Shown: positions 4,187-36,791 of the stretch, piece by piece
Numbering within the stretch: the first letter of the stretch is position 1
Layout of the letters: each line of letters starts with the position of its first letter
Virus genome (UHGV): UHGV-0195539
DNA: 37,850 bases
Source of the DNA: a virus
Strand: one strand, 5' to 3'
Notes under the pieces: generated by a model
Databases searched by the model: none
What the model was told of the DNA's origin: nothing
What the model saw: only the letters and a program-made list of their open reading frames with translations
Translations under genes and position numbers: made by a program

Positions 4187-6968
4187 TCTGCATATCAGGG
4201 TTGCTCTGGCGGCGGCAGACACCCTGACACAACCTCTCAGGCGCGCCCGCGAAACCGTGGGCGCGCTTTCTGATTCCCTCCGTGAAACTCAGGACTCCAT
4301 CCGCTCGCTTGAACGGCAGAGTGAAGCCTTTGCTGCGGCACAGACTAAATTTGACGAAGCCACCCGGAAAATTGCCGCTGTTCAGCAGCAACTGAACCGT
4401 CTGCAGCAGGCGGAGCGTGAGGGTACCGTGCTCAGTGAACGGCAGCGTGAAATGATGGCTTCGCTGACCACCCGGCTTGAACGTCTGAACCGGGTGAGGG
4501 ATGTACATCAGCGACGCCTGGAGGATTCACGCCGGGAGCTGGAGAGACACGGTATTGCCGCAGAGGGCAGCAGTCAGACCATACAGGCAGCCATTCGCCG
4601 GACGGCAGAGTATAACGAAGAGCTGGCGCGACAGCGGCAGGCGCTCGCACAGGTGACCCGTGCACAGCAACGCTATGAACAGGCGCAGGAGCGACTCGGG
4701 CGGATACGTAATGCCGGTGCGGCGGCACTGGCTGCCGGTGCAGCAGGACTTTACGCTGGCGGGCGTGCTGTTGCGCCGGTGATGGATCTCCAGCGTCATG
4801 GTGCCGTCATTGCGGCTCAGGCAGGAGAGGGCGCGTCAGATGCCGTGGGGTATACCGGGGTTATAAACCACATGGTTCATACCGGTATCACACCGGATGC
4901 ACAACTGGCGGCTGAAGCTGTGGGTGCTGTCCGCTCCACTCTGGGTGGGCTGGGGGCGGTTAGTGAGAATGAACTGACCCGAATCACCCGAAAAATGCTG
5001 GATATGCAGGCCGTGATGGGGGGCGATATCCCGCAGCACATTCAGGCGGCTGCCATCATGATCAAAAACGGTCTTGCACGCAGCAGTGACGAGGCGGTTG
5101 ATCTGATGGTGGCGGGCATGCAGCGCATGGGGCCGGTTATGCGCGATGAGCTGCCTGAGATCCTTCACGAGTATTCGACCCATTTTCGTAACATGGGGCT
5201 GACAGGGTCGGAAACCATGACGCTCCTTGCGGATATGGCGCAGCAGGGGAAGTTTGCGCTGGATAAAACCGGCGATGCCATCAAGGAGTTCAGTATTCGC
5301 GGCTCCGATATGTCAAAGGCGAGTGCTGAAGCGTATGCGCTTATCGGGCTGGATGCAGCCAGGATGTCATCGGCTGTAGCCAGTGGTGGAACGGCTGCAC
5401 GGGCTGCGCTGCAGAAAACAGCCTCGGGTCTGTTGCAGATCGTCGATCCGGCTGAGCGGGCCAATGCGGCCATCGCACTTTTTGGTACACCGGTTGAAGA
5501 TCTGTCTGTCGATCAAATCCCTGCCTTTCTTGGCGCGCTGGCGCGGGTGTCTGACCGTATGGCTGACGTGTCTGGTGTGGCGGACCGGATGGGGCAAACC
5601 CTGCGTGACAATCTGAGTGGTGATGTGGCGCGGCTTACCGGGACGTTCAGCGCGCTGAGAAGTGGGATTATCGGGGAGATTACGGACGATCTGCGTGGGC
5701 TTGTCCGGATGGCCACAGCGTGGGGTGAGCGTCTGCAGGCGTGGGTGAATGCGCATCCGGAACTGGTGCGAATGATTGCGCTGACGACGGGAGCGGTGCT
5801 GGCGTTAACCACAGCGATGGGGGCGTTGTCCGTTGCGGCCTGGATGGTTGTCGCACCGTTACTGAAACTGCGTCTGGGGCTTGCCCTGCTTCGCGCGATC
5901 CCGGCCGGACTCTCTGTTGCCGGTACGCTGTTTGGCGGACTGACGGGTGTGATTTCAGCCGTGGGGGCTGCGCTGGGGGCGCTGACCTGGCCGGTTGTGG
6001 TGGCGGTGGGAGCCCTGGTCGGTGGTGCTCTGCTGATCTGGCGCTACTGGGATCGGGTCAGGGCGTTTGTGAGCGGATTTATTGAAGGGGTACAGTCAGC
6101 ACTGGCGCCCTTCATGGCGACAGCCTCCCGTTTTGCGCCGCTGCTGGATCTGGTTTCAGGGGCACTGTCCCGTATTCTGGGATGGTTTAAATCCCTGTTA
6201 ACGCCAGTCTCCTCCACGCGTGATTTGCTTGAGCAGTGCACCTCTGCCGGGCAGACGTTCGGGAGCTCTCTGGCCGGTGCGTTAGCCACGGTTTTTTCGC
6301 CCCTGAAAGCTCTGATTGACGGTCTGGCGTGGGTGCTGGAAAAACTCGGTGTTCTGCCCGGTGAAGCTGAGCGGGTTAAGCGAAAACTGGATGAGGCCCG
6401 TAAAACGCCGGTGGCATGGGAGTGGGATCCGGAACAGAAAAAAATGGTTCAGAAGGCGTGGCACTGGTCGCCTCCTGGTGGGGCCAGTGTGCCTTCCGGC
6501 GCCTCCGGTACACAGCCTCCGCCGGTGGCGCTCCCTGCGGGGATAGCGCCGGACGGTAACCGTAACGTTCTCCGTCACCTGAAAGGCATTGAGGGGAATA
6601 CCGGTGGTCTGCTGGCTGAAAACCGTAAACGTATCGGACCCGGAGATATTGTGTTTAAACATCTTCCACGGGCGCTGGCGGTCCGGGGGCAGTGGCATGA
6701 ACCTGTCGTTGCGCCGTCTTCCGGCGGAATGCGCGCGCTGCCACAGGAGGAGATTCAGGTGCAGCAATGGCCGACGGCACGCCCGGCGCCACGAATGCAC
6801 CAGCAGGAAACCTTCGCCAGCGCCTTTCAGGGGGAGATACATGTGCATCTTCACGGGGTGAGTTCGCATAATCCCCGGGAACTGGCGCGCATGGTTGGTG
6901 ACGCTGTCAGGGCGGAAATGAACAGAATGGCACGTGCCGGAACCGGCAGCTTCCGCGATCGCGACTGA
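4140..6968 (+). CDS. T: tail tape measure protein T
   Basis: 942-aa ORF with coiled-coil N-terminal region, central Ala/Gly-rich hydrophobic segments and P2 tail gene position. GTG start with GAGGTG SD; ATG at 4176 is an alternative. Confidence 0.85.
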   Translation: MSGRLPEAEVTIMMNNLHIRVALAAADTLTQPLRRARETVGALSDSLRETQDSIRSLERQSEAFAAAQTKFDEATRKIAAVQQQLNRLQQAEREGTVLSERQREMMASLTTRLERLNRVRDVHQRRLEDSRRELERHGIAAEGSSQTIQAAIRRTAEYNEELARQRQALAQVTRAQQRYEQAQERLGRIRNAGAAALAAGAAGLYAGGRAVAPVMDLQRHGAVIAAQAGEGASDAVGYTGVINHMVHTGITPDAQLAAEAVGAVRSTLGGLGAVSENELTRITRKMLDMQAVMGGDIPQHIQAAAIMIKNGLARSSDEAVDLMVAGMQRMGPVMRDELPEILHEYSTHFRNMGLTGSETMTLLADMAQQGKFALDKTGDAIKEFSIRGSDMSKASAEAYALIGLDAARMSSAVASGGTAARAALQKTASGLLQIVDPAERANAAIALFGTPVEDLSVDQIPAFLGALARVSDRMADVSGVADRMGQTLRDNLSGDVARLTGTFSALRSGIIGEITDDLRGLVRMATAWGERLQAWVNAHPELVRMIALTTGAVLALTTAMGALSVAAWMVVAPLLKLRLGLALLRAIPAGLSVAGTLFGGLTGVISAVGAALGALTWPVVVAVGALVGGALLIWRYWDRVRAFVSGFIEGVQSALAPFMATASRFAPLLDLVSGALSRILGWFKSLLTPVSSTRDLLEQCTSAGQTFGSSLAGALATVFSPLKALIDGLAWVLEKLGVLPGEAERVKRKLDEARKTPVAWEWDPEQKKMVQKAWHWSPPGGASVPSGASGTQPPPVALPAGIAPDGNRNVLRHLKGIEGNTGGLLAENRKRIGPGDIVFKHLPRALAVRGQWHEPVVAPSSGGMRALPQEEIQVQQWPTARPAPRMHQQETFASAFQGEIHVHLHGVSSHNPRELARMVGDAVRAEMNRMARAGTGSFRDRD

Positions 6969-11284: not shown

Positions 11285-11877
11285 TTCGGCCCCCCTGTCA
11301 TGCTTCCGCCGGACTGAACACCGTTATGAACGTGCGTATGCACGGTAACACCATTTGAGCGTAAGTTTCCGTTACTGTGTGTGATATCCCCTTTCATGGT
11401 GCCACCGTCAGTCAGTTCAAACGTCCTGGCCTTCAGATGTTTTGTGCACTCTACGGCCGGTGTGTCCAGGGTAATACGTGTTTCCGCAGAGATCTCTGCG
11501 GTTTTGATTCCTTTCACCGTCAGCGCGCCTTTTTCTGCGTCATAGCGTATCTCGGCACCGTCAGGTGCAAGGAGTATCACTTCATTCTGTTTTGTGCCGG
11601 GCGCCGGGTGTTCTTCGCTGTAGAGACTGCCAGCCACAACGGCCATTTCAGGACTGCCGCCCGGGCAGAGCAACAGCACCTGTTCACCGGGGGAGGGGGG
11701 CAGCCAGATTTTAAACGCCCCGGCGCGTGTGCAGTTCCAGCGGAGCCAGTCCGTTGTCAGTCCGCCGCTGGTAGCGCGAATGCGCCAGTTTTTCAGATCC
11801 ACCTCCGAAACGACGCCGGTGCGGACCATGTTTTCCAGCAGTCGCATGATTTCAGCATTCAACGGGTGTTTCTCCAC
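11281..11877 (-). CDS. V: baseplate spike/assembly protein V
   Basis: NMVRTG, TDWL, GEQVLLL, RITLDTP, GGTMKG, SNG, HTH matches to P2 gpV; start may be GTG at 11877 or ATG at 11847. Confidence 0.8.
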   Translation of the reverse strand: MEKHPLNAEIMRLLENMVRTGVVSEVDLKNWRIRATSGGLTTDWLRWNCTRAGAFKIWLPPSPGEQVLLLCPGGSPEMAVVAGSLYSEEHPAPGTKQNEVILLAPDGAEIRYDAEKGALTVKGIKTAEISAETRITLDTPAVECTKHLKARTFELTDGGTMKGDITHSNGNLRSNGVTVHTHVHNGVQSGGSMTGGPK

Positions 11878-20293: not shown

Positions 20294-20365
20294 GGAAATT
20301 CTCCATAACCTGGTCGTTTTTCCCATGATGGCGGCAGATAACGGTGTGTCTCAAGGTGCTTAAGT

Positions 20366-20383
20366 TGTATGGCGACGGGGACA
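20366..20383. promoter_or_regulatory. candidate Ogr-dependent late promoter box (TGT-N12-ACA) in the divergent O/P intergenic region
   Basis: Exact TGT-atggcgacgggg-ACA read from the sequence, centred about 55 nt upstream of a plausible start site for P. Confidence 0.4.
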
Positions 20384-20448
20384 ACGCGGGCTGGTATCAG
20401 GCGGTATTGCTGAGGCTTAATCTTGCCCTGTTAATGTCAGGGGGTGCA

Positions 20449-22182
20449 ATGATCCAGGATGTCTTTATTCGTATGCGGGCGAAACAGCTTTACTGGCAGG
20501 GGTATACCCCGGCGGATATCGCTCAGCTGATGGGAATAAACCAGAACACGATTTATTCGTGGAAAAAACGCGATGAGTGGGATGCCACTCCCCCGATCCA
20601 GCGGGTCACCCAGTCCATTGATGCACGCCTGATACAGCTCACCGCCAAACCGGATAAAAGCGGCGGTGACTTTAAGGAAATTGACCTGCTGACGCGCCAG
20701 CTGAAAAAACTGAATGACGGTCAGGGAGAACAGGCTGTTTCCGGTAAGAAGCCCCGCAGGCGCAAACTGAAAAATCACTTCACCGAAGAGCAGATTGTCG
20801 CACTCAGGGAAAAAATCCTGCCGTCACTGGCCTGGCATCAGCGCGAATGGTACGACAACCGCCATCACCGCAACCGCATGATCCTGAAGTCGCGTCAGAT
20901 TGGTGCGACCTGGTATTTTGCGCGCGAAGCACTCCTTGATGCACTGCGTGATGATGTCTCCGCCGGGTACCAGCGCAACCAGATATTTTTGTCCGCATCC
21001 CGTCGCCAGGCGTATCAGTTCAAACACTTTATTCAGCAGGCGGCGCTGGAAGTTGATGTCGAACTGAAAGGGGGTGACAAGATTGTTTTGTCTAACGGTG
21101 CAGAGCTTCACTTCCTTGGCACATCGGCAGCAACCGCTCAGTCGTATACCGGACACCTTAAATTTGATGAATTTTTCTGGGTCAGTAACTTTGTGGAACT
21201 CAGGAAGGTTGCTGGGGCAATGGCGACACTGGAAGGGCTTACGCGAACCTACTTTTCAACACCGTCAGGTGAAACACATGAGGCGTATCAGTTCTGGACG
21301 GGGGACCGCTGGAACAGCGAACAGCCACGCTCAAAACGCAGTGAGTTTGATGTTTCACATGCGCATCTGAAGGGGGGCGTGCTCTTTCCTGACGAAACAT
21401 GGCGGCAGATTGTCACTATTGAGGATGCTGTCGCTAACGGATGGCGGTACACCAATATTGGTGTTATTCGCGGCGAAAATACAGAAAGTGAATTTCGTAA
21501 TCTGTACATGTGCGAATTTGTCCGTGATGGTGAGGCAGCCTTCAGCCTGAGTGCGCTCACCGGCTGCGGTGTTGACGGCTATGACGAATGGCCTGACTGG
21601 AAACCTTTTGCTGCCCGCCCTATGGGGGTGAGGGAGGTCTGGCTTGGGTATGACGCCAACGGCAGCAGCGGGAAGGGGGACTGCGGGGCACTGTCGGTGT
21701 GCGTGCCGCCCCTTGTTGCCGGTGGGCGTTTTCGCACGGTGGAAACTGTCAGGGTTCAGGGGATGGAGTTTGAACAGCAGGCCGCACTGATTGAGGAATA
21801 CACCCAAAAATATAACGTGAAACATATCGGCATTGATGTGACCGGCGGGAACGGGGAGGGGGTTTATCAGATTGTGAAAAAGTTTTTCCCGATGGCCGTA
21901 CCGTACAACTTCAATATCGCCTCCAAGCGGGCACTGGTCATGAAAATGCTTCAGGTGGTGCGTGCCGGACGCTGGGAGTATGACCGCAGTGAACGTGACC
22001 TGATCCAGGCATTCGCATCGGTGCGAAAAATACAGACACCCGGCGGCTATATCACCTACGACACCGACCGCTCCCGTGGCGTCAGCCATGGTGACCTCGC
22101 CTGGGCAACCATGCTTGCTGTTATCAATGAGCCAATTGGTGCGGAGCGTGAGGATAATCGCGGCTTTGCAATGGAGTTCTGA
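20449..22182 (+). CDS. P: terminase ATPase (large) subunit P
   Basis: LYWQGYTPADIAQ and IYSWKKR in the N-terminal domain; ATPase and nuclease regions throughout; ATG with AGGGGG SD. Confidence 0.9.
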   Translation: MIQDVFIRMRAKQLYWQGYTPADIAQLMGINQNTIYSWKKRDEWDATPPIQRVTQSIDARLIQLTAKPDKSGGDFKEIDLLTRQLKKLNDGQGEQAVSGKKPRRRKLKNHFTEEQIVALREKILPSLAWHQREWYDNRHHRNRMILKSRQIGATWYFAREALLDALRDDVSAGYQRNQIFLSASRRQAYQFKHFIQQAALEVDVELKGGDKIVLSNGAELHFLGTSAATAQSYTGHLKFDEFFWVSNFVELRKVAGAMATLEGLTRTYFSTPSGETHEAYQFWTGDRWNSEQPRSKRSEFDVSHAHLKGGVLFPDETWRQIVTIEDAVANGWRYTNIGVIRGENTESEFRNLYMCEFVRDGEAAFSLSALTGCGVDGYDEWPDWKPFAARPMGVREVWLGYDANGSSGKGDCGALSVCVPPLVAGGRFRTVETVRVQGMEFEQQAALIEEYTQKYNVKHIGIDVTGGNGEGVYQIVKKFFPMAVPYNFNIASKRALVMKMLQVVRAGRWEYDRSERDLIQAFASVRKIQTPGGYITYDTDRSRGVSHGDLAWATMLAVINEPIGAEREDNRGFAMEF

Positions 22183-22187
22183 ACACA

Positions 22188-23231
22188 ATGAGTAAACGCA
22201 AAAAATACACCGGAAAGCGGGGGCAGGATTCGCTACACGATGCACTGAAATCAACGCCTGCACTCAGCGCATTCACCTTTGATGGGCCCTATGAAGTCAG
22301 CCACATGGATCTCCTGGATAACATGTCATGTGCAGATAACGGGCGCTACTTTGATACCCCCATGGACTGGAACGCTATCGCCCGTGCATCCCGTCGTGCG
22401 TCCTGGCATCAGTCGGCTTTGTACTTCAAGCGCAACGCCCTGAACGGGTGCTTTGTTCCTCACCCTCTGCTGTCCCGCCAGGCGTTTTCAGCCTTTGCGC
22501 TCGACTGGTTTGTGTTTGGTAATGCCTATCTTGAAGTGCGGCGTAACAGGCTGGGGGAACCACTCCTGCTTCGCCCGGCACTGGCAAAATATACACGCAG
22601 GGGAAGTGACCTGGATACCTACTGGTATCTCAACGACGACGGTACGGAGTTCAGTTTCAGGAAAGGGACTGTGTGCCACGTGCTTAATCCTGATATTAAT
22701 CAGGAGATCTACGGGATGCCGGAATATATCGGCGGGTTGCTGTCTGTCAGCCTGTCAAACTCAGCGGATACATTCCGCAAGCTCTACTACGATAACGGCT
22801 CGCATGCCGGGTGTATTATCTATGTAGGCACACCTCAGGCGAATGCGGAAAGTGTCGAGGCCATTAAAAAAACGCTTACGGATTCCCGTGGTCGCGGGGC
22901 GTTTAAAAACCTGTTTCTTCATGCGCCGGGTGGTGGCAAGGATGGTGTGCAAATACTGCCGTTCCAGCAGATAACCGCAAAGGATGAATTCCTGAACATC
23001 AAGGGGAGCGCCCGCGACGATATCCTTGCTGCCCATCGTGTACCACCTCAACTGATGGGGGCAATGCCTGACGGGAATGCGGCGTTTGGTGACGTTGAGA
23101 AAGCGGCGAGGGTGTTTTTCATCAACGAGTTGCAACCTGTCATGGAGGCCATGAAGCATGTCAATGAATGGCTTGGCGTTGAGGTGATGCGCTTTAACCC
23201 CTATGCCCTGCTTCTGGATAACGCCAGCTGA
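22188..23231 (+). CDS. Q: portal protein Q
   Basis: 347-aa ORF immediately after the large terminase gene, P2 gpQ-like in size and position. Confidence 0.9.
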   Translation: MSKRKKYTGKRGQDSLHDALKSTPALSAFTFDGPYEVSHMDLLDNMSCADNGRYFDTPMDWNAIARASRRASWHQSALYFKRNALNGCFVPHPLLSRQAFSAFALDWFVFGNAYLEVRRNRLGEPLLLRPALAKYTRRGSDLDTYWYLNDDGTEFSFRKGTVCHVLNPDINQEIYGMPEYIGGLLSVSLSNSADTFRKLYYDNGSHAGCIIYVGTPQANAESVEAIKKTLTDSRGRGAFKNLFLHAPGGGKDGVQILPFQQITAKDEFLNIKGSARDDILAAHRVPPQLMGAMPDGNAAFGDVEKAARVFFINELQPVMEAMKHVNEWLGVEVMRFNPYALLLDNAS

Positions 23232-23296: not shown

Positions 23297-23800
23297 TTAA
23301 CGGAATGCGGATGGCGTTCTTCTTTGCAGCTTGCTGATAATATGCATCTTCATACTGTTTACTATCGGCAGCCATTCCCTGTCACCGTCTCCGTTGATGA
23401 CCACGCGAATGGAGGTATCATCTTCCACGCGAACCCGAAGAGATACACCGTCTTTTCCGACGGAATGTAACTCCATTGCCAGGACTATGTTTACCGACTC
23501 TCCTTCATCGTGTGAGTCAACCCATGTTCTTACAGCCATCCGGAATATGTTATCTGTGTCGGTTGCAATCATATTTACCGGAAATGGCCTGAAGTCCCGA
23601 TCGTTTCTGCACGGAAACCCCGTATCAACGTAACGATGATGCTCGCCGTCTTTGTCTTCCCATGTCTCTGAAGGCAATTCCAGCCACTGCTCATAAAAAG
23701 CAACCAGCTTTTCAGCCTGATTGCGCAGAATCCCTGTAACCTCCCGCCTCGCGTCCCGGCTCTTTTTGTTTGCCAGGTACAAATCGCGAAAATGGCTCAT
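23297..23800 (-). CDS. hypothetical protein (orphan cargo gene, 167 aa)
   Basis: Clean ORF with its own upstream intergenic region, converging on Q; no family recognised from sequence. Confidence 0.55.
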   Translation of the reverse strand: MSHFRDLYLANKKSRDARREVTGILRNQAEKLVAFYEQWLELPSETWEDKDGEHHRYVDTGFPCRNDRDFRPFPVNMIATDTDNIFRMAVRTWVDSHDEGESVNIVLAMELHSVGKDGVSLRVRVEDDTSIRVVINGDGDREWLPIVNSMKMHIISKLQRRTPSAFR

Positions 23801-24336
23801 GTCGCTCTCCTTTGGTCTGTTTATGCCAGCCTGTATTCTGCGCTCACCTCATATTGTGCGCAAGTTTTCACCCGTGAATGACTGATACTTTAAATTCTAT
23901 TAACTTTATGATTTCAGTGATTTTTGTCTCTCTTTTTTATCCCGTTCGTCACGTCCGTTTCCCTCCCGATCTCCGACCTCGCCAGACGCAATCAGACGCA
24001 TTCTGACGGCCTGTTTCCCTGACCATGTTTTGATGTGGTTTTTCAAAACTGACTTTACTGCGTGCGTATCACGCGCCATACGACCCCAAATAAAGCAACC
24101 CGCCTTCCATCCCTCAATTCGGGCGCCCTTCCCTCGTCGCCTGCGCGCTGCAATTGCCTCGTTTTTCGTGCACCGTGCAAACCGGCCTCAGCCAGCGCCG
24201 TTACCGGGCGGAATGGGGAAAAAGTACATTAGAAAAATTGTGCAATTTCGTGCGCTTTTGTGCAGTTTTGATCTTGCGATTTTTTGTGGCAGGTGGTGAT
24301 GATATTCATCTGTCTGAATCAGTGGGAGACTGCCGG

Positions 24337-24882
24337 GTGAGAACTGTGAAAAATTACTCATATCCTTATTTAACTTTTGTCACGCTTTCTGTTTTGGGGG
24401 GGATTTTTCTTTTTATTTGGTGGCGAAACGATGTTTACAGAATTACCTACCTTTATTCGTTCACGACAAACTGCCTTGTTTCAGTGTCTGTGGTGCTTTC
24501 GGTTTTTGTCTCACTGTGCCTGTTGAAAAAGAACCTGGTTGATCGGTCTAAATTTACCGGGGTTACATCGTATCTTAAGTTTTTTTCGGGTATGTGCCTT
24601 CTTACCTGGATGATTCTGTTTACCCTCCTGGTTACGCTGATATATTTTCTTCCGGGTGAAGATTCATTCTATTCCGCTCCCTATGAGTACAGTCGCGGTA
24701 GCTCAAAAAGTTGTTCAGGGGCATTTGTTGATGATCCTGATTTGCAAAAAACAATATTTATTTGCTACCCATACGGTGACTATCAGGATGGTAATGTGAT
24801 TTATGTGAAGAAGCGTGTGAATGCGCTGGGGGCGGTGGTCACCTATGCATACGCGACAAGCGGCCGATTTCGGTTTGACTGA
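24337..24882 (+). CDS. hypothetical multi-pass membrane protein with C-terminal soluble domain (about 181 aa)
   Basis: About three hydrophobic helices then a 75-aa Tyr/Gly-rich tail. Visibly AT-rich relative to neighbours. Track ORF begins at an upstream TTG; GTG with GGGAG SD preferred, start uncertain. Confidence 0.5.
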   Translation: MRTVKNYSYPYLTFVTLSVLGGIFLFIWWRNDVYRITYLYSFTTNCLVSVSVVLSVFVSLCLLKKNLVDRSKFTGVTSYLKFFSGMCLLTWMILFTLLVTLIYFLPGEDSFYSAPYEYSRGSSKSCSGAFVDDPDLQKTIFICYPYGDYQDGNVIYVKKRVNALGAVVTYAYATSGRFRFD

Positions 24883-24897
24883 AAAAAGAAATCCTGT

Positions 24898-24921
24898 GTT
24901 ACCCTCGCTGCTGAGGGTAAC
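24898..24921 (-). terminator. rho-independent terminator closing the replication operon
   Basis: Perfect 9-bp inverted repeat GTTACCCTC-GCTGCT-GAGGGTAAC followed on the minus strand by a T-rich run. Confidence 0.55.
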
Positions 24922-24931
24922 ATGCGTGAAG

Positions 24932-25249
24932 TCATCGCCCGGTTCTTGAGCTGATAATGCTTTGCGCCAGCAACTGCCAGCCCTCTTTCTGTTGCCCGTA
25001 CTTGTCCTGATACCTGTTTACCTGCAAGTTTCCGTGCACCAGAATCAGATCGCCTTTTCTGTGTTTTGCCAGTTCTTCGTGCTGCTTCCCGAATGCAATA
25101 AGGTAAAGCCACATTGTGGTTGGCTGTTCTGCGCCATGGCAGGGTAGTGATACCGCCAGTTGTGCCGTTGTGACGTTGGTTCCTTTGGTTGTTCTCCTTG
25201 TGTTCGGGTCTGCTGCCAGTCGTCCCTCTGTTGCAACCTGTGTTGGCAT
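24932..25249 (-). CDS. SSB-like OB-fold protein (short, no C-terminal tail)
   Basis: Pattern aligns with the SSB OB-fold (e.g. WLYLIAFGKQHEELAKHRKGDLILVHGNLQVNRYQDK versus [36 protein letters not shown]); GGGAGA SD. Confidence 0.65.
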   Translation of the reverse strand: MPTQVATEGRLAADPNTRRTTKGTNVTTAQLAVSLPCHGAEQPTTMWLYLIAFGKQHEELAKHRKGDLILVHGNLQVNRYQDKYGQQKEGWQLLAQSIISSRTGR

Positions 25250-25281: not shown

Positions 25282-25620
25282 TTAGATGACTGGCAGCTCT
25301 TCGCCAGCGCCGTAGATAAACAGAATTCGCTTCATGATTTCGCTGCGCTTGCAGGCTTCAATTACGGACGGCTCTTGTTGCCATTCTGCCCGTTGCGCCA
25401 GCTCCAGTCGTTCCTTTTCCGTTAGCTTCCGGTAATGCGTTATCTTGTCCGTGTACCCGTCCACAACCAGCAGCCCTTCGCGTACCATCTTCCCGGCGGC
25501 CTGATTAATGATGGTCCTTTTCACGCCCAGTTTTTCAACCAGCTCTGGTGCGCTGAAGCGTGCGTGCGTTTCCAGGTAGCGTAAAATGATTACCTTTCCG
25601 GTCATTCTGGGTGTCTTCAT
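25282..25620 (-). CDS. winged-helix DNA-binding protein (putative regulator)
   Basis: HTH-like segment FSAPELVEKLGVKRTIINQAAGKMVREGLL; ATGA overlap with the upstream gene stop. Confidence 0.55.
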   Translation of the reverse strand: MKTPRMTGKVIILRYLETHARFSAPELVEKLGVKRTIINQAAGKMVREGLLVVDGYTDKITHYRKLTEKERLELAQRAEWQQEPSVIEACKRSEIMKRILFIYGAGEELPVI

Positions 25621-25787
25621 TTGGCGGCTCCTTCGTTGTTCCGGCGTTCGCGGAGTTCGGTCAGTGCTGCCAGTAAATTTTCCCACCATGTTTCTTCCAC
25701 AACCGGATTTCGTCGTGAAAGCAGCTGCTGCGCCGACTCAATCATTTTCGTAAGCTCTTTGTCGCTGATCCTCCTGATGTCGTTCAT
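25617..25787 (-). CDS. hypothetical small protein (56 aa)
   Basis: Internal ATG with AAGGAG SD at 7-nt spacing. Confidence 0.45.
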   Translation of the reverse strand: MNDIRRISDKELTKMIESAQQLLSRRNPVVEETWWENLLAALTELRERRNNEGAAK

Positions 25788-25835: not shown

Positions 25836-26240
25836 TTACCTGCGTGATTGCCTGCTGGCGGCCGAATGCACATAGCGGACAATTGCCGCTTTTCGGTTAA
25901 CGACGGCCAGCGTTCTTGCCAGTTCTTCGTTGAGTTTTCTGGTCTGTTTTTCGTGGTATGCCTGCATGATTTTTCCTACGGGAGTCAGTGGTTCAGGCTC
26001 TGATATGGCGCGACGAGGGCGCACGGCAACGATGAATGCGCTTCTGTCGGTGTTGATTCTTGCAGTCAGGATGTCGGTCATAACGGTGTCTGTGCTGCGA
26101 TCGGGACTGGCGATCGTGATTTCCAGTTCGTCGCCTGGCTGCGGTCGAACACTGACGCCGCTCAGTGTCAGTGCCGGAATGCGTGCGTTCATGATGGTGC
26201 TGAAATCATGGCGCTGGAGTACGCAATGGAATCGTGTCAT
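25836..26240 (-). CDS. hypothetical protein (134 aa)
   Basis: ATGA overlap with the replication gene stop; GGAGG SD. Confidence 0.55.
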   Translation of the reverse strand: MTRFHCVLQRHDFSTIMNARIPALTLSGVSVRPQPGDELEITIASPDRSTDTVMTDILTARINTDRSAFIVAVRPRRAISEPEPLTPVGKIMQAYHEKQTRKLNEELARTLAVVNRKAAIVRYVHSAASRQSRR

Positions 26241-28750
26241 GGGTTAACCTCCGGTTGATCTGCTGCCACCAGGCTTCGTGATTTTTCATCCCAGTGCACA
26301 ATCCGCCCGTCAGGCAGGCGAACGCGTGCACCTCTGTGTACGGAAAGTGCTGCGCCACTGTGTAGCTCCTCGCCCGTCGTGCTCAGTGCCGACTTGATCA
26401 CGGTGGTGGTGACGTCAGTCAGTGGCAATGCTGTACGTACATGTATGACGTCATCGGGCGTGGTGGAGCCGCCGGTTTTCACGGTTTTTGTGTCAGATGG
26501 CGCATCTTTCAGCTGCCTGGTGAGTTGTTTTCTCTCTGTGGGGGTCAGTGACCTTAACCATTCGCTCAAATCACCTTCCGGGATGGTCAGTTTTTGTTCT
26601 TTCCTGGTTTCCGGTGGTGGGGTTTTCCCCTCTCCGGTGTCTGTTTTTTCATCATGGGGACAGTTATTGCCACGAGTCCAAGGTGCGGCAAAGCCGCACT
26701 CAACGTCAAAACCCTCGTCCGTGCTGTTGTCGGCTTTCGCTTCTTTTCTGACCAGTTTCCACTCGTCCGGATGGGTACAGATGGTGTAGCGCTCGCCGAG
26801 CGACGGGGCGCAAATTCCGTAGATGCGCTGCGGGAATTCGCCGTAGTCGTTGGCCTCATCTGCGGTTTCGTATGCGGTGCGGACCAGGTACGCGTTGCGG
26901 GGAATGAGCACGCCACCCTGGCGGGTGATGTAGGTGGCAAAACACCCCACGTCAGCAGCGGCCAGAATGGCGTCAATGTCGTCATGATCCAGGCGCTTCG
27001 GTGATGCCGGGTTGCGCTCCATCTGTCCGGCAAGGCGGCGTAGTTCACGCCACACCTGGCGGGGCGGGATGCCGAAGAACTGGAACTGACGGATGCGATG
27101 GAGACTCGCCCAGGCAATGGCGTTTTCCACGGTTTCGGCCATGGTTTTCCCTGATTCCTCATCGGCGTAAGGTTTGCCGGTTTTCGGGTCATTGTCGTGA
27201 AAGGCGCTGGCGTCCAGGTTCTTGCCGATATAGGTTGCGATGTAACTTGCCGGTGTGCCTTTTGCCGGGTCGATTTTTTCGCACTTGAAGCGCGGCGAAA
27301 TATCATCCCCCAGTTCTGCGCGATCTGATTTGACTGCCGCGTCACGCATGATTGCAATGATGCGTTCTTCATTGTCCGGGGAGGTGAATACCAGCATGTG
27401 CCAGTGCGGTGTGCCGTCATGGTGTGGCTCAACGGTGCGCACCCCGTACCAGCTCAGGCCTTCTTTGTTGAGTTTTTTTCTTACAGCTGCAAAGACGTCG
27501 TACACCAGATAATCGCTGGCATCGCGCACGGTGGCACCGTTGTATTTCGGGTTCAGGCTGCCGTCCTCGTTTACGCTGTGAAAGCGGGAAGGGCAGGTCA
27601 CTGTCACGAAGAACGCGGAGTCACCACGCGATTCGGCGACCTGTTCCATCCCTCTGACGCAGGCCATCATCTCGTTGCGGCGGTTGCGCGGATTCCCCAG
27701 CCCTGACCAGTACACGTCCTCCAGGCTCAGGCGTTCACCGTCTTCGTTTTCAATGTCCCAGCTTTTGAGAAAATCACGGGTGCGCTGGCGTTTCTCCCGG
27801 AATTCCTGGAGTGACTCATGGCTGATGTAGGGGGATGCCTTGCGCGATACTCTTCCGGCGGCACGCAGTAATTCCTCCCGCCAGAGATCGGCGAGGTGGC
27901 GCAGCTGGTTGTTCCACCAGGTGGCGCAGGTGATGCGCATTACTGCACCCGGTACCCGTTCAGGGTCTGGTGCCGTGCGGCGGTCACGTCTGAGCTCGAG
28001 TGACGGCCAGCATGGTGGGGTCACGCCCAGTTTTAACGCCATGCGCGCCAGCTGCTGGTAAGTCAGCAACCAGGTAAACAGGTTATCGTCGCCTTTTCCT
28101 GTCCGCTCAGTAACTTCATCACATATGCGTTCCAGTTCGGTGGAAAATGCCGCCGCTGTTAGTGTGGCAAGGCGCTGAATTTGATCACGGTTGAGTTGTG
28201 GCAGCATGAGTAATTCATCAAGGCGATGGCGTGCTGCGGTGGCTTTGAATGCCGTCGTGGCGAAGCATTCATTCACCTGTTCGATGCGTTTCAGGCGTGT
28301 GCGCAGTCCACGGCGAACAAAGTTATCAGCCACGTGTGTATTGTTGTTTTTCACGCCTTCATGGCGGGCGCTTTGCTGTTTGCGGTTTAAACGCGCCAGA
28401 TCACGAATGAGCGCGTTGCCAAGAAACGAGGGCAGGGCGCGAAGTTCTGCCATGGCTTCCGATACCACTGTGGGCGGATTTTCGCGTTTGTGTCTCGCCA
28501 GTTTTTCCAGTCTGATCCGGCGCTCTTCGTCGTGGTGAAGATGCGAATTAATTCGCTTGCCTTCGTCTGTGTTTGTCAGGAAGTCGACGGTCTCTTCATC
28601 CAGTCTTGCATCAATGCGAATGTCTTCGTTGATGTAGCTCTGAATGGCCTGGCGTAATGCGGTTGGTTGCGCTCTGCCGAACGTTTCAGGATCGATAACC
28701 GGTAGCGGGGCGTTCCACGGGTACGCCAGTTGTGCGTTATGGTCGCTCAT
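26237..28750 (-). CDS. A: replication initiation endonuclease A (rolling-circle, HUH type)
   Basis: HWHMLVF HUH-type motif and large size match P2 gpA; ATG with GGGGAG SD, ATGA overlap with upstream gene. Confidence 0.9.
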   Translation of the reverse strand: MSDHNAQLAYPWNAPLPVIDPETFGRAQPTALRQAIQSYINEDIRIDARLDEETVDFLTNTDEGKRINSHLHHDEERRIRLEKLARHKRENPPTVVSEAMAELRALPSFLGNALIRDLARLNRKQQSARHEGVKNNNTHVADNFVRRGLRTRLKRIEQVNECFATTAFKATAARHRLDELLMLPQLNRDQIQRLATLTAAAFSTELERICDEVTERTGKGDDNLFTWLLTYQQLARMALKLGVTPPCWPSLELRRDRRTAPDPERVPGAVMRITCATWWNNQLRHLADLWREELLRAAGRVSRKASPYISHESLQEFREKRQRTRDFLKSWDIENEDGERLSLEDVYWSGLGNPRNRRNEMMACVRGMEQVAESRGDSAFFVTVTCPSRFHSVNEDGSLNPKYNGATVRDASDYLVYDVFAAVRKKLNKEGLSWYGVRTVEPHHDGTPHWHMLVFTSPDNEERIIAIMRDAAVKSDRAELGDDISPRFKCEKIDPAKGTPASYIATYIGKNLDASAFHDNDPKTGKPYADEESGKTMAETVENAIAWASLHRIRQFQFFGIPPRQVWRELRRLAGQMERNPASPKRLDHDDIDAILAAADVGCFATYITRQGGVLIPRNAYLVRTAYETADEANDYGEFPQRIYGICAPSLGERYTICTHPDEWKLVRKEAKADNSTDEGFDVECGFAAPWTRGNNCPHDEKTDTGEGKTPPPETRKEQKLTIPEGDLSEWLRSLTPTERKQLTRQLKDAPSDTKTVKTGGSTTPDDVIHVRTALPLTDVTTTVIKSALSTTGEELHSGAALSVHRGARVRLPDGRIVHWDEKSRSLVAADQPEVNP

Positions 28751-29163
28751 GCGTCGCACTCCCCGGCAGTCGCCGCCTGAAACGCCGCGCGGTACAGCAT
28801 GAGAAGGCGCTGGTATTCGCCGATAAAACCTTCTGCGGTGTATATACCTTTCACGGCCACGCTGTGGTTTGTCATTTCCAGAACCAGCGCCATCTCTGAT
28901 GACGACCAGCTGATGGTGGTGCTGTCGGTGCCGTTGATGTGAAATAAACCCAGTCCATCACCATCACCTTTCACGTCCACGCGGTAACGACCGTCAACGG
29001 TGAAGGAGAAATCCCCGGATGTGGTGATGCTGCGGGCAGCCTGTTTACAGGCGCGGCGGTAATAGTCGTGCCAGTCGTTCAGGCGGGAAGCCAGCCGGGG
29101 ATCCACTGCCCACATCCAGTTAAAAAAATCCTGAATATCTGAAAGTCCCTTAACGCTCTTCAT
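28747..29163 (-). CDS. hypothetical early protein (138 aa)
   Basis: GGAGG SD; ATGA overlap with A start. Confidence 0.55.
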   Translation of the reverse strand: MKSVKGLSDIQDFFNWMWAVDPRLASRLNDWHDYYRRACKQAARSITTSGDFSFTVDGRYRVDVKGDGDGLGLFHINGTDSTTISWSSSEMALVLEMTNHSVAVKGIYTAEGFIGEYQRLLMLYRAAFQAATAGECDA

Positions 29164-29459: not shown

Positions 29460-29842
29460 GGTGTGGCCTCTTCGTTTGTGAATTTTGAAAACTCACCAAC
29501 CAGAGGTGGAAAACTCAGGGTGGCGAGACGTACAGGGTTTCCACAACCGGCAAACGAAGAAACCGGCCCGACCGAAGTCGGCCCTGTACGCCCCGCCATA
29601 ATTCTGACGCGAAAAAGACGTGGCGATACAGTACGCACAAAAAAACCGCTGGCGCGGCTGTGCGCTTCGTTTGTCAGCGGGGTGGAAATCCCGGCACCCG
29701 TTTTATGAGGTGCAGCGGAAATGTAACCCGACACGACGAGCGCTGGCAAGCGGTTTTTGTGTTGCGTGCTGATGTGGTTAGAATGTGGCGAATTAATATC
29801 ACCTGGCAACTGGTGATTGTCTGCATACGCGGGGTGTTTCTG

Positions 29843-30307: not shown

Positions 30308-30631
30308 CTGGCGAAGCAGCTGGGTGATGCTTTCACCGGCTGCCCTGTTTTCCGGGAATGACACCGGCATGTTCAGCTTGCGTGCCATTGCGTACTCTGC
30401 CCGTGCGCCAGCTGACTCCGTCCAGCCTTCCAGTAAGTAAATGGCATCGGCACACATGAGCATCGAAATACAAATGCTCATGTACTGCTGCTGGCTTAGT
30501 CCGTCCGGCAGTATGGCAGGGTTGAGTGCGGTGTATCCGGCTGACTTAAGCTTCATCGCCGCCATGGAAAACGCCGTTCTGTTGTGGTCTTTGTATCCGG
30601 TCATGGGACCGGCGATATAAATCACTGCCAT
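30281..30631 (-). CDS. DUF4406-like protein (nucleoside 2-deoxyribosyltransferase-like fold)
   Basis: N-terminal VIYIAGPMTG motif; GGGAGG SD. Confidence 0.55.
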   Translation of the reverse strand: MAVIYIAGPMTGYKDHNRTAFSMAAMKLKSAGYTALNPAILPDGLSQQQYMSICISMLMCADAIYLLEGWTESAGARAEYAMARKLNMPVSFPENRAAGESITQLLRQSEAAQATE

Positions 30632-33339: not shown

Positions 33340-33575
33340 ACGACCGCCAGATTGTAGGGCTGGATGTACCCATCAATATCCATCTGGCTGATGAGCTCGT
33401 TTATTTCGGTAAGCGCCTCACTGTCGTCAGCGCAGAATGCTGCCCGTTGTAACCCGCTGAGGCCCAGTATCAGGGAGTTGTCGGCGGCAGTTTTATTTTC
33501 TCCGTTTGTTTTTGCCAGTGAAAAACTGTGGCGCTCAAGGAGCAAATTCACTAATTGTTTGTAGTGGTTGTTCAT
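33336..33575 (-). CDS. hypothetical small acidic protein (79 aa)
   Basis: ORF in an AT-rich stretch; no recognisable family. Confidence 0.45.
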   Translation of the reverse strand: MNNHYKQLVNLLLERHSFSLAKTNGENKTAADNSLILGLSGLQRAAFCADDSEALTEINELISQMDIDGYIQPYNLAVV

Positions 33576-33599
33576 GTCTGTCTCCTTTCTCTCCTGTGA

Positions 33600-36492: not shown

Positions 36493-36607
36493 TTGTAATT
36501 TGCGTTAATTTGCTCCCCTTGTTTTGATTTAGTCATTGAAAAATAAGTAAATCATCAAGGGGAGTAAGGTGTGTTAAATCTCCTGCGGGCGCTTTTTTTG
36601 TCTCCCT

Positions 36608-36621
36608 TTGATACCGAACAA
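36608..36621. promoter_or_regulatory. FNR-like half-site pair (TTGATaccgAACAA) in the host dmsA promoter region
   Basis: Resembles FNR consensus TTGAT-N4-ATCAA; dmsA is a known FNR-activated gene. Confidence 0.3.
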
Positions 36622-36791
36622 TAATTACTCCTCACTTACACGTAATACTACTTTCGAGTGAAAATCTACCTATCTCTTTGATTTTCAAATTATTCGATGT
36701 ATACAAGCCTATATAGCGAACTGCTATAGAAATAATTACACAATACGGTTTGTTACTGGAATCAATCGTGAGCAAGCTTGAGTGAGCCATT

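What the first reader, a model, noticed from the sequence alone, without database searches (positions are those of the whole stretch)
24337..24882. AT-rich multi-pass membrane protein with soluble C-terminal domain
Codon use is visibly more AT-rich than neighbouring phage genes, suggesting recent acquisition. The product has about three TM helices plus a 75-aa Tyr/Gly-rich tail, an architecture common in superinfection-exclusion and abortive-infection effectors. The upstream region carries repeated TTGTGC elements that could be an operator.
Basis: partly seen in the sequence, partly recalled or inferred. Interest (0 to 1): 0.7.

Follow-up and report, generated by a model that had tools for sequence, protein, structure and literature searches.

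The report
Untested membrane gene in P2 hotspot
This is a real, AT-rich accessory gene in the known cargo slot beside the packaging site of a P2-like E. coli prophage; it encodes an inner-membrane protein with a small periplasmic barrel, has already been catalogued as "3 TM", has never been tested, and most plausibly blocks entry of other phages.

Summary
A 178/181-aa ORF (GTG 24346 or 24337 to 24882, + strand) has 42% GC against 54% for the window. It has three hydrophobic helices and a 75-aa Tyr/Gly/Ser-rich tail.

The window is a P2-like prophage. The gene fills the known variable slot between the portal gene, cos and the replication genes. Close relatives carry DUF4760 or a TumE toxin-antitoxin pair in the same slot.

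The identical protein is system #4 (470 loci, "3 TM", no domain) in Table S5B of Rousset et al. 2022. It is absent from their table of tested systems.

The family has about 57 clusters at 50% identity, all annotated "hypothetical". Members occur in P2-like and lambdoid phages (434, mEp332) and as chromosomal or plasmid orphans.

Charge bias, an invariant Cys pair and AlphaFold models indicate an N-in topology with a periplasmic five-strand barrel.

My best guess is exclusion of superinfecting phages at the DNA-entry step (about 0.4). This is inferred, not shown.

The "TTGTGC operator" is real DNA but not an operator of this gene. It is a backbone repeat beside cos, kept whatever the cargo. P2, 186 and P4 carry ATGCA repeats at the matching position.

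The parts
24346..24882 (+). The stop is TGA 24880-24882.
   Evidence: ORF list. Homolog N-termini align from residue 3-4. RefSeq has a 178-aa call. In-frame stops upstream in relatives exclude the 235-aa call. The protein is identical to Rousset Table S5B system #4.
24364..24426 (+). TM helix 1 (residues 10-30, numbered from the 24337 start)
   Evidence: Hydropathy; AlphaFold helix 10-33.
24463..24525 (+). TM helix 2 (residues 43-63)
   Evidence: Hydropathy; AlphaFold helix 41-64.
24526..24585 (+). K/R-rich loop 2 (residues 64-83), predicted cytoplasmic
   Evidence: Across 22 family members it carries 2.6 K+R per 10 aa and a net charge of +2.2 per 10 aa.
24586..24651 (+). TM helix 3 (residues 84-105)
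   Evidence: Hydropathy; AlphaFold helix 76-104.
24652..24879 (+). C-terminal five-strand beta-barrel domain (residues 106-181), predicted periplasmic. The invariant Cys codons are at 24712-24714 (C126) and 24763-24765 (C143).
   Evidence: It is the most conserved segment, and the two Cys are invariant in 22 diverse members. The AlphaFold model of the domain alone has pLDDT 86 and pTM 0.72. The phrog_1416 profile covers exactly this half plus TM3.
24334..24340 (+). Shine-Dalgarno-like GGGTGAG, 5 nt before GTG 24346
   Evidence: Read from the sequence. It is retained in all variants, whereas GGGAGA (24324-24329) is lost in L018 and L172.
24301..24306 (+). Candidate -10 hexamer GATATT (GATAAT in relatives), with no good -35. 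The aligned region of other lineages has TGnTAAATT.
   Evidence: Upstream comparisons. The consensus promoter scan found nothing upstream, so this remains a candidate only.
24269..24933 (.). The exchanged cassette: the gene plus 68-77 nt upstream and 51 nt downstream
   Evidence: Relatives with DUF4760 cargo (L004) or TumE/HVO_A0114 cargo (L005) match the window up to 24268/24269 and again from 24934/24940.
24898..24921 (.). Perfect 9-bp stem-loop (GTTACCCTC-gctgct-GAGGGTAAC) between the convergent 3-TM and SSB genes. A T-rich run follows only on the minus strand.
   Evidence: Read from the sequence. The terminator scan did not list it. It is a plausible terminator of the leftward early operon rather than of this gene.
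24237..24264 (+). This is a backbone element at the hotspot border, not part of the cassette.
   Evidence: No shuffle matched (0 of 100). The element is conserved among 38 distinct repeat-bearing sequences, most of them P2-like loci, and the sequence diverges right after the third repeat. Counterparts exist in P2, P4 and 186.
24133..24151 (.). Probable cos core (gcgcccttccctcgtcgcc)
   Evidence: It matches the P2 cosR complement at 13 of 19 positions (my count). It aligns with the corresponding block of L011 and L021. This is inferred; the cohesive ends were not determined.

Best explanation
The gene is a single-gene accessory cassette (moron) in the cos-proximal variable slot of a P2-like E. 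coli prophage. It encodes an inner-membrane protein with a cytoplasmic N-terminus and three TM helices. A short loop 1 and a disulfide-stapled five-strand beta-barrel face the periplasm. I infer that it is made in the lysogen from its own weak promoter. I further infer that the periplasmic barrel interferes with the step at which a superinfecting phage takes its DNA across the periplasm and inner membrane, either by binding the phage's ejection or tape-measure proteins or by masking an inner-membrane entry factor. That would be superinfection exclusion without cell death.

Shown here: the gene, its slot, cassette exchange, family conservation, and the predicted topology and fold.
Inferred only: expression in the lysogen, any anti-phage activity, and the target.
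For: Slot:
- The gene lies between portal/cos and the SSB-to-gpA early genes.
- This is the published P2 defence hotspot that holds old and tin in P2. In phage 186 the same slot holds orf97, annotated 'expression from plasmid blocks 186 infection'.
- Relatives carry DUF4760 or a TumE TA pair in exactly the same place.
- The identical protein is the fourth most frequent cargo, with 470 loci, in Rousset Table S5B.

Mobility:
- The gene sits in three different accessory slots: the P2-like hotspot, between xis and exo on the opposite strand in 434/mEp332/2B8, and between Q and the holin in a Providencia lambdoid prophage.

Selection:
- The CDS shows 2-3 synonymous and 0-1 nonsynonymous differences between prophages whose upstream 171 nt are visibly much more divergent, by my own count about 12%.
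- The family has 57 representatives at 50% identity with an invariant Cys pair.

Topology:
- K/R is enriched in the N-terminus and loop 2, while loop 1 and the C-domain are near neutral.
- In the full-length model a loop-1 strand (residues 37-39) is the only strand outside the C-domain, so it presumably pairs with that domain.
- The periplasmic domain, not the helices, is the most conserved part after the short N-terminal motif. This points to action in the periplasm.

Single gene:
- The cassette has no partner gene that could act as a sensor.
Against: No experiment exists for any family member. The gene is absent from the tested-systems table of Rousset et al.. It has no PADLOC, Pfam or NCBIfam match and only a PHROG of unknown function. 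I found no paper mentioning the accession.

There is no detectable homology to P22 SieA and no match at E <= 0.1 to any PHROG annotated as an exclusion protein.

Many relatives are non-syntenic chromosomal or megaplasmid orphans, including 25 Pantoea plasmid records. That fits a general envelope function equally well.

The promoter is only a weak candidate.
Confidence: 0.4

Rival explanations
1. It is an envelope protein unrelated to phage defence, carried as a lysogenic-conversion or fitness gene. One possibility is an orphan immunity protein against a toxin that acts in the periplasm (bacteriocin or T6SS effector). Another is a stress or envelope-homeostasis factor that phages picked up from bacterial chromosomes.
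For: Distant homologs are stand-alone genes in non-phage settings: after ptsG in Serratia, on Pantoea megaplasmids (25 records, similar position), after the scr operon in Raoultella, and in Kluyvera, Proteus and Pseudomonas. Clusters are also present in Klebsiella and Phytobacter. A membrane-anchored periplasmic domain with a disulfide is the format of known periplasmic immunity proteins such as colicin M immunity (my own knowledge).
Against: No toxin gene lies next to any copy examined. The phage copies sit in slots enriched for anti-phage cargo. The chromosomal copies are non-syntenic orphans, which suggests accessory rather than housekeeping genes. The Pseudomonas copy lies beside a type I RM system and a Lon/BrxL-like gene.
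Confidence: 0.3
2. It is an abortive-infection effector. The 3-TM protein would depolarise or permeabilise the inner membrane once infection is sensed, killing the cell before phage release.
For: Membrane proteins in hotspot systems are commonly read as suicide effectors (Rousset et al. text). The gene has the hotspot location.
Against: The cassette has no sensor partner. The helices are the least conserved part and the periplasmic domain the most conserved. A periplasmic domain is poorly placed to sense cytoplasmic infection cues.
Confidence: 0.12
3. It serves the phage's own lytic cycle, for example lysis timing or protection of progeny from adsorbing to lysing cells, rather than protecting the lysogen.
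For: In a Providencia lambdoid prophage the homolog lies between the antiterminator Q and the holin, on the late-gene strand.
Against: In P2-like phages and in 434 it is far from the lysis genes and oriented against the neighbouring operons. It is dispensable, since relatives replace it with unrelated cargo. Chromosomal orphans exist.
Confidence: 0.08
4. The upstream TTGTGC repeats are an operator or activator site that controls this gene.
For: The repeats are non-random. They would lie at roughly -55/-65/-75 from a start site placed just after the candidate -10, which is my own estimate from the coordinates and not a mapped start. The aligned region in 434 and in Salmonella P2-likes keeps some copies. 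In P2 the matching ATGCA repeats lie just upstream of the annotated old-tin mRNA starts.
Against: The repeats lie outside the swapped cassette and are kept with DUF4760, with opposite-strand TumE cargo and with cargo that begins with a terminator hairpin. Phage 186 and satellite P4 have the same triple repeat at the same distance from cos, facing a convergent terminator or the 3' end of psu, so no gene is driven there. The repeats decay to one intact copy in 434 and in Serratia.
Confidence: 0.12

Closest known systems
P2-hotspot system #4 ('3 TM') in Table S5B of Rousset et al. 2022 (PMC9122126)
   Same: The 181-aa sequence is identical, in the same slot between gpA and gpQ beside cos. It is listed with 470 loci.
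   Different: Nothing differs; it is the same entity. The paper gives no domain, no name and no test, and the gene is absent from Table S2 of evaluated systems.
P22 SieA (inner-membrane superinfection exclusion protein, PMC10883804)
   Same: Both are prophage-encoded proteins of about 160-180 aa with three predicted TM helices in the inner membrane. Each is a single gene that is sufficient in SieA's case, and SieA blocks DNA delivery.
   Different: No sequence relationship is detectable (hhalign probability 0.2%). SieA's conserved motif FxRYPxEAxxFNK is predicted to be cytoplasmic and is absent here, whereas here the conserved module is a periplasmic beta-barrel. SieA sits between the gene 16 and gene 9 homologs of P22-like phages.
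P2 old/tin and 186 orf97 (cargo of the same cos-proximal slot)
   Same: They occupy the same genomic slot. Old and Tin are annotated as lysogenic-conversion genes that block other phages, and orf97 is annotated as blocking 186 when expressed from a plasmid. In P2 they are transcribed away from cos.
   Different: The proteins are unrelated and, to my knowledge, not membrane proteins (Old is annotated as an AAA-family ATPase/exonuclease). No homology was detected with PADLOC or PHROGs.
HK97 gp15 and T4 Imm/Sp type exclusion proteins (my own knowledge)
   Same: They are small phage-encoded inner-membrane proteins that act at the periplasm or inner membrane to stop genome entry.
   Different: They have one or two TM helices. 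No match to any annotated exclusion PHROG was seen at E <= 0.1. The resemblance is one of format only.
phrog_1416 (unknown function)
   Same: Strong match, E = 8e-50, covering residues 92-181.
   Different: The 90-residue profile covers only TM3 plus the barrel. This may be because phage annotations start at the internal Met92. The full family is 165-190 aa.

Membership tests
Cargo of the P2 cos-proximal defence hotspot (Rousset et al. 2022) | Lies between the replication gene A side and the portal gene Q, adjacent to cos, in a P2-like prophage | tested here: met
   terL 20344-22182, portal 22188-23231, probable cos 24133-24151, the gene at 24346-24882, SSB 24932-25249, gpA-like 26237-28759. 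The definition is quoted.
Cargo of the P2 cos-proximal defence hotspot (Rousset et al. 2022) | The content of the slot varies between otherwise similar prophages | tested here: met
   Flanks are 92-99% identical, with DUF4760 or TumE/HVO_A0114 in place of the gene.
Cargo of the P2 cos-proximal defence hotspot (Rousset et al. 2022) | Confers resistance to phages | not testable with these tools
   Not among the systems the authors evaluated. I found no paper on it.
P22 SieA family | Detectable sequence or profile similarity to SieA types A-C | tested here: not met
   hhalign of the family profile against P22 SieA gives probability 0.2% and E = 0.26.
P22 SieA family | Conserved C-terminal motif FxRYPxEAxxFNK | tested here: not met
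   The motif is described. No RYP..EA..FNK string is present in the 181-aa sequence.
P22 SieA family | Three TM helices, about 160 aa, inner membrane | tested here: inconclusive
   Three predicted helices and a similar size. Localisation was not tested. This shows a shared format only.
Moron (independently transcribed accessory unit in a phage genome) | Composition differs from the surrounding phage genes | tested here: met
   GC 0.421 against 0.538; GC3 0.445 against 0.55-0.63.
Moron (independently transcribed accessory unit in a phage genome) | Own promoter and terminator | tested here: inconclusive
   There is only a -10-like GATATT/GATAAT, and the consensus scan found nothing upstream. The 9-bp hairpin downstream lacks a T-run on the + strand. 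5' and 3' end mapping is needed.
Two-component abortive-infection systems with a membrane effector (RexAB-like) | A partner sensor gene in the same cassette | tested here: not met
   The exchanged cassette 24269-24933 holds a single gene.
phrog_1416 | Significant match to the profile HMM | tested here: met
   E = 8e-50, 167.7 bits, profile positions 1-90 of 90 matched to residues 92-181.

The most novel reading that the evidence does not exclude
The protein founds an uncharacterised family of periplasm-facing superinfection-exclusion proteins: three TM helices plus a disulfide-stapled mini-barrel. On this reading the family has moved between P2-like phages, lambdoid phages (including the classical phage 434) and chromosomal islets, and it blocks genome entry by a contact not yet described for SieA, gp15 or Imm.
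Probability: 0.35. Interest if true: 0.55.

Novelty: new member of a known kind. Interest (0 to 1): 0.4.

Why it matters
This is one of the commonest cargos of the E. coli P2 hotspot: 470 loci, ranked fourth in the published table. It is also present in the textbook phage 434. Yet no family member carries a name, a domain or a phenotype. A single-gene clone and a plaque panel would settle whether it is a new exclusion family. If it is, escape mutants would identify which phage or host component is contacted in the periplasm during DNA entry, a step that is still poorly understood. The finding is not conceptually surprising, because prophage-encoded membrane exclusion proteins in this slot are an established theme.

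Tried and rejected
- Pfam, NCBIfam and PADLOC scans gave no family.
- PDB sequence search gave nothing.
- A match of the C-domain to ten repeats of a 3074-aa protein (P0079) looked like a lead, but Pfam shows only sub-threshold repeat noise.
- The genome-contig scan with the broad alignment failed for lack of conserved stretches. With the narrow alignment it gave only two loci.
- Viral-contig scans with three distant members found nothing.
- The consensus sigma-70 scan found no promoter upstream. By eye, the repeats did not fit the CRP, MarA/SoxS, DnaA, NtrC, sigma-E or Ogr (TGT-N12-ACA) motifs as I recall them, and I dropped these.
- The 56-aa 'putative membrane protein' upstream of the 434 homolog was considered as a partner gene. 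I rejected it because it overlies non-coding sequence homologous to the P2-like cos flank.
- The PGAP 235-aa start was rejected.

Full report
**What is there**

The window is a P2-like prophage. It is 99.8% identical over the tested 1.5 kb to the chromosome of E. coli JNEC-KY203. RefSeq annotates that region, in order, as terminase large subunit, portal, two hypothetical proteins, SSB, a MarR-family regulator, two small hypotheticals and a replication endonuclease. In window coordinates:
- terL 20344-22182 (+)
- portal 22188-23231 (+)
- a 167-aa ORF 23297-23800 (-)
- a non-coding stretch
- the gene of interest
- SSB 24932-25249 (-)
- a MarR/Ren-like gene 25282-25689 (-)
- a gpA-like gene 26237-28759 (-)

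**Checking the observation**

An open frame runs 24154-24882. Three starts are on offer.
- PGAP's GTG 24175 (235 aa) is wrong. In three relatives the stretch 24175-24336 contains in-frame stops and is visibly far more divergent than the CDS (by my own count about 12%), while the downstream CDS is almost invariant.
- GTG 24346 follows GGGTGAG, which is retained everywhere. It coincides with the Met of homologs (MKNYSYPYL, MKKDSYPYL) and with RefSeq WP_000801013.1 of 178 aa.

GC is 0.421 (GC3 0.445) against 0.538 for the window, which puts the gene in the lowest 2.3% of equal-sized windows. Hydropathy gives three segments at about residues 10-30, 43-65 and 84-106. The 75-aa tail has 9 Tyr, 7 Gly and 8 Ser.

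**The slot**

BLAST against relatives with different cargo places the exchanged segment at 24269-24933. A JNEC-KY179 prophage has a DUF4760 gene there, and an LZSFT34 prophage has an opposite-strand TumE/HVO_A0114 toxin-antitoxin pair. Their flanks match the window to 24268/24269 and again from 24934/24940.

This is the cos-proximal hotspot between gpA and gpQ described by Rousset et al. 2022. In P2 it holds old and tin. In 186 it holds orf97, annotated 'expression from plasmid blocks 186 infection'.

Searching that paper's supplement found the identical 181-aa sequence as system #4 of the P2 hotspot. DUF4760 is #3 with 1102 loci. The sequence does not occur in their table of systems evaluated for defence, in the supplements of a 2026 follow-up preprint or, by accession, in the searchable literature. 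The gene is therefore catalogued but uncharacterised.

**The family**

- Pfam, NCBIfam and PADLOC give nothing. PHROGs gives phrog_1416 (unknown function), whose 90-residue profile covers only residues 92-181.
- An exhaustive HMMER search finds 57 representatives at 50% identity. Nearly all full-length members are 165-190 aa.
- Named members come from Escherichia, Shigella, Salmonella, Citrobacter, Klebsiella, Phytobacter, Kluyvera, Raoultella, Pantoea, Serratia, Providencia, Proteus and Pseudomonas. All are annotated 'hypothetical'.

Phage contexts fall into three types:
- the P2-like hotspot in E. coli and Salmonella, sometimes beside HicAB or YafO modules
- the xis-exo interval of lambdoid phages 434, mEp332 and 2B8, on the strand opposite the pL operon, at 51% identity
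- between antiterminator Q and the holin in a Providencia lambdoid prophage

More distant members are solitary, non-syntenic chromosomal or plasmid genes:
- after ptsG in Serratia
- on Pantoea megaplasmids, 25 records
- after the scr operon in Raoultella
- in Kluyvera, and near mliC in Proteus
- beside a type I RM system and a Lon/BrxL-like gene in Pseudomonas poae

It is not met, but the family is clearly not phage-specific either.

**Structure and topology**

AlphaFold on the full protein (pLDDT 73) gives helices 10-33, 41-64 and 76-104, a short strand at 37-39 and five strands after residue 108. The C-domain alone models well (pLDDT 86, pTM 0.72) as a five-strand barrel.

Across 22 diverse members:
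- The N-terminus and loop 2 are K/R-rich (net +1.9 and +2.2 per 10 residues). Loop 1 and the C-domain are near neutral.
- C126 and C143 are invariant.
- The C-domain is clearly more conserved than the helices and loops, behind only the 9-residue N-terminal motif.

By the positive-inside rule, together with the conserved Cys pair and the loop-1 strand (the only strand outside the C-domain), the topology is N-in with loop 1 and the barrel in the periplasm. This is a prediction, not a measurement.

**Evolution**

Prophages whose flanks differ by several percent carry CDS copies that differ by 2-3 synonymous and 0-1 nonsynonymous sites. This fits recent spread of the cassette under purifying selection, and it agrees with the atypical composition.

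**Mechanism**

The evidence supports a lysogen-expressed envelope protein whose working part is periplasmic. Combined with the slot's record, the most likely role is superinfection exclusion at the DNA-entry step. I put this at about 0.4.

An abortive-infection effector is less likely, at about 0.12. There is no sensor partner, and the helices are the least conserved part.

A non-antiviral envelope role, such as orphan immunity to a toxin acting in the periplasm, stays a serious rival at about 0.3 because of the chromosomal orphans.

P22 SieA is the closest analogue in format: three TM helices, about 162 aa, inner membrane, blocks DNA delivery. It is not a relative, since hhalign gives probability 0.2%, and its conserved motif is cytoplasmic.

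**The TTGTGC elements**

Only two exact hexamers lie upstream, and the hexamer is not enriched in the window. However, T[TC]GTGC occurs three times at exact 10-nt spacing (24238-24263), which never arose in 100 shuffles.

Comparison shows that this is a backbone element.
- Among 38 distinct repeat-bearing sequences, most of them P2-like loci, the consensus is an A6-7 tract followed by TTGTGCAAAATTGTGCAnnnTTGTGCA. A conserved GC-rich block precedes it, and unrelated sequence follows directly after the third repeat. That downstream sequence includes opposite-strand cargo and terminator hairpins.
- In P2 the matching position, about 100-140 nt from cosR, has three ATGCA repeats at 10-12 nt spacing just upstream of the annotated old-tin mRNA starts.
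- Phage 186 and satellite P4 also have three ATGCA repeats at the same distance from cos. There they face a convergent terminator (186) or the 3' end of psu (P4), so nothing is transcribed from them.
- According to Rousset et al., P4 shares only the cos region with P2.

I therefore infer that the repeats belong to an extended packaging signal rather than to an operator of the cargo gene.

Where the gene has left P2-like phages, only one intact copy survives (434 and Serratia).

The gene's own promoter is uncertain. The candidates are a -10-like GATATT (GATAAT in relatives) at 24301-24306, and TGnTAAATT in the aligned region of other lineages. The consensus scan found nothing upstream.

**Verdict**

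The gene is already catalogued. If active, it would be a new family within a known kind of system.

Noticed in passing
window 24133-24264; P2 NC_001895 ~33452-33593; P4 NC_001609 ~11500-11624; 186 NC_001317 ~30500-30624: The side of cos facing the hotspot has a conserved layout. It runs from the cos core through a hairpin and one (A/G)TGCA, then a GC-rich 'GCCGCGCCAG..CTGGCG' block, then three (A/G)TGCA repeats at 10-13 nt spacing. P2, 186 and P4 use ATGCA, while the window's lineage and many other P2-like prophages use GTGCA. The layout extends well beyond the 55-bp cos core cited from Ziermann & Calendar. It may be a cosB-like recognition element, and it marks the exact left border of cargo exchange.
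   Followed up: partly
L001 (phage 434, OL657227) 4810-5007 versus L021 4729-5010: The 434-type accessory gene carries about 200 nt homologous to the non-coding flanks of a P2-like cos region on both sides, with the ~78-nt cos core missing (two abutting BLAST HSPs, 75-76% identity). The lambdoid copy was therefore captured from a P2-like hotspot. The annotated 56-aa 'putative membrane protein' CPT_434B_35 lies over this relic and is probably not a gene.
   Followed up: yes
window 23297-23800 (-): A 167-aa ORF (phrog_5091, unknown function, GC 0.49) lies between the portal gene and cos. It is missing from many relatives, in which the portal stop is only ~555 nt from the 3-TM gene. This is a second variable slot, on the portal side of cos.
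   Followed up: partly
window 29516-29603 (-) and 29639-29713 (-): Rfam matches above the gathering score to C4 antisense RNA (82 bits) and to the isrK Hfq-binding RNA (64 bits). These suggest an RNA-based, P1/P7-like immunity or antirepressor control module in this P2-like prophage.
   Followed up: no
window 36567-36701 (-): Full-length Rfam match to the enterobacterial sRNA STnc130 (125 bits) near the right end of the window.
   Followed up: no
window 25282-25689 (-): The MarR-type winged-helix protein next to SSB matches phrog_142, 'Ren-like exclusion protein' (E = 2e-28). It is conserved in relatives whatever their cargo.
   Followed up: no
window 24175-24882 as annotated in NZ_AP045179.1 (WP_254210625.1, 235 aa): RefSeq carries two start calls for the same gene, 235 aa and 178 aa. 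The longer one runs through the cos-flank repeats and is contradicted by in-frame stops in relatives.
   Followed up: yes
L016 (Serratia marcescens NZ_CP042515.1, labelled plasmid pE28_003): This 67-kb linear 'plasmid' record carries fabF-pabC-mltG-tmk-holB-ptsG and other core chromosomal genes. It looks like a chromosomal fragment that was labelled as a plasmid.
   Followed up: no
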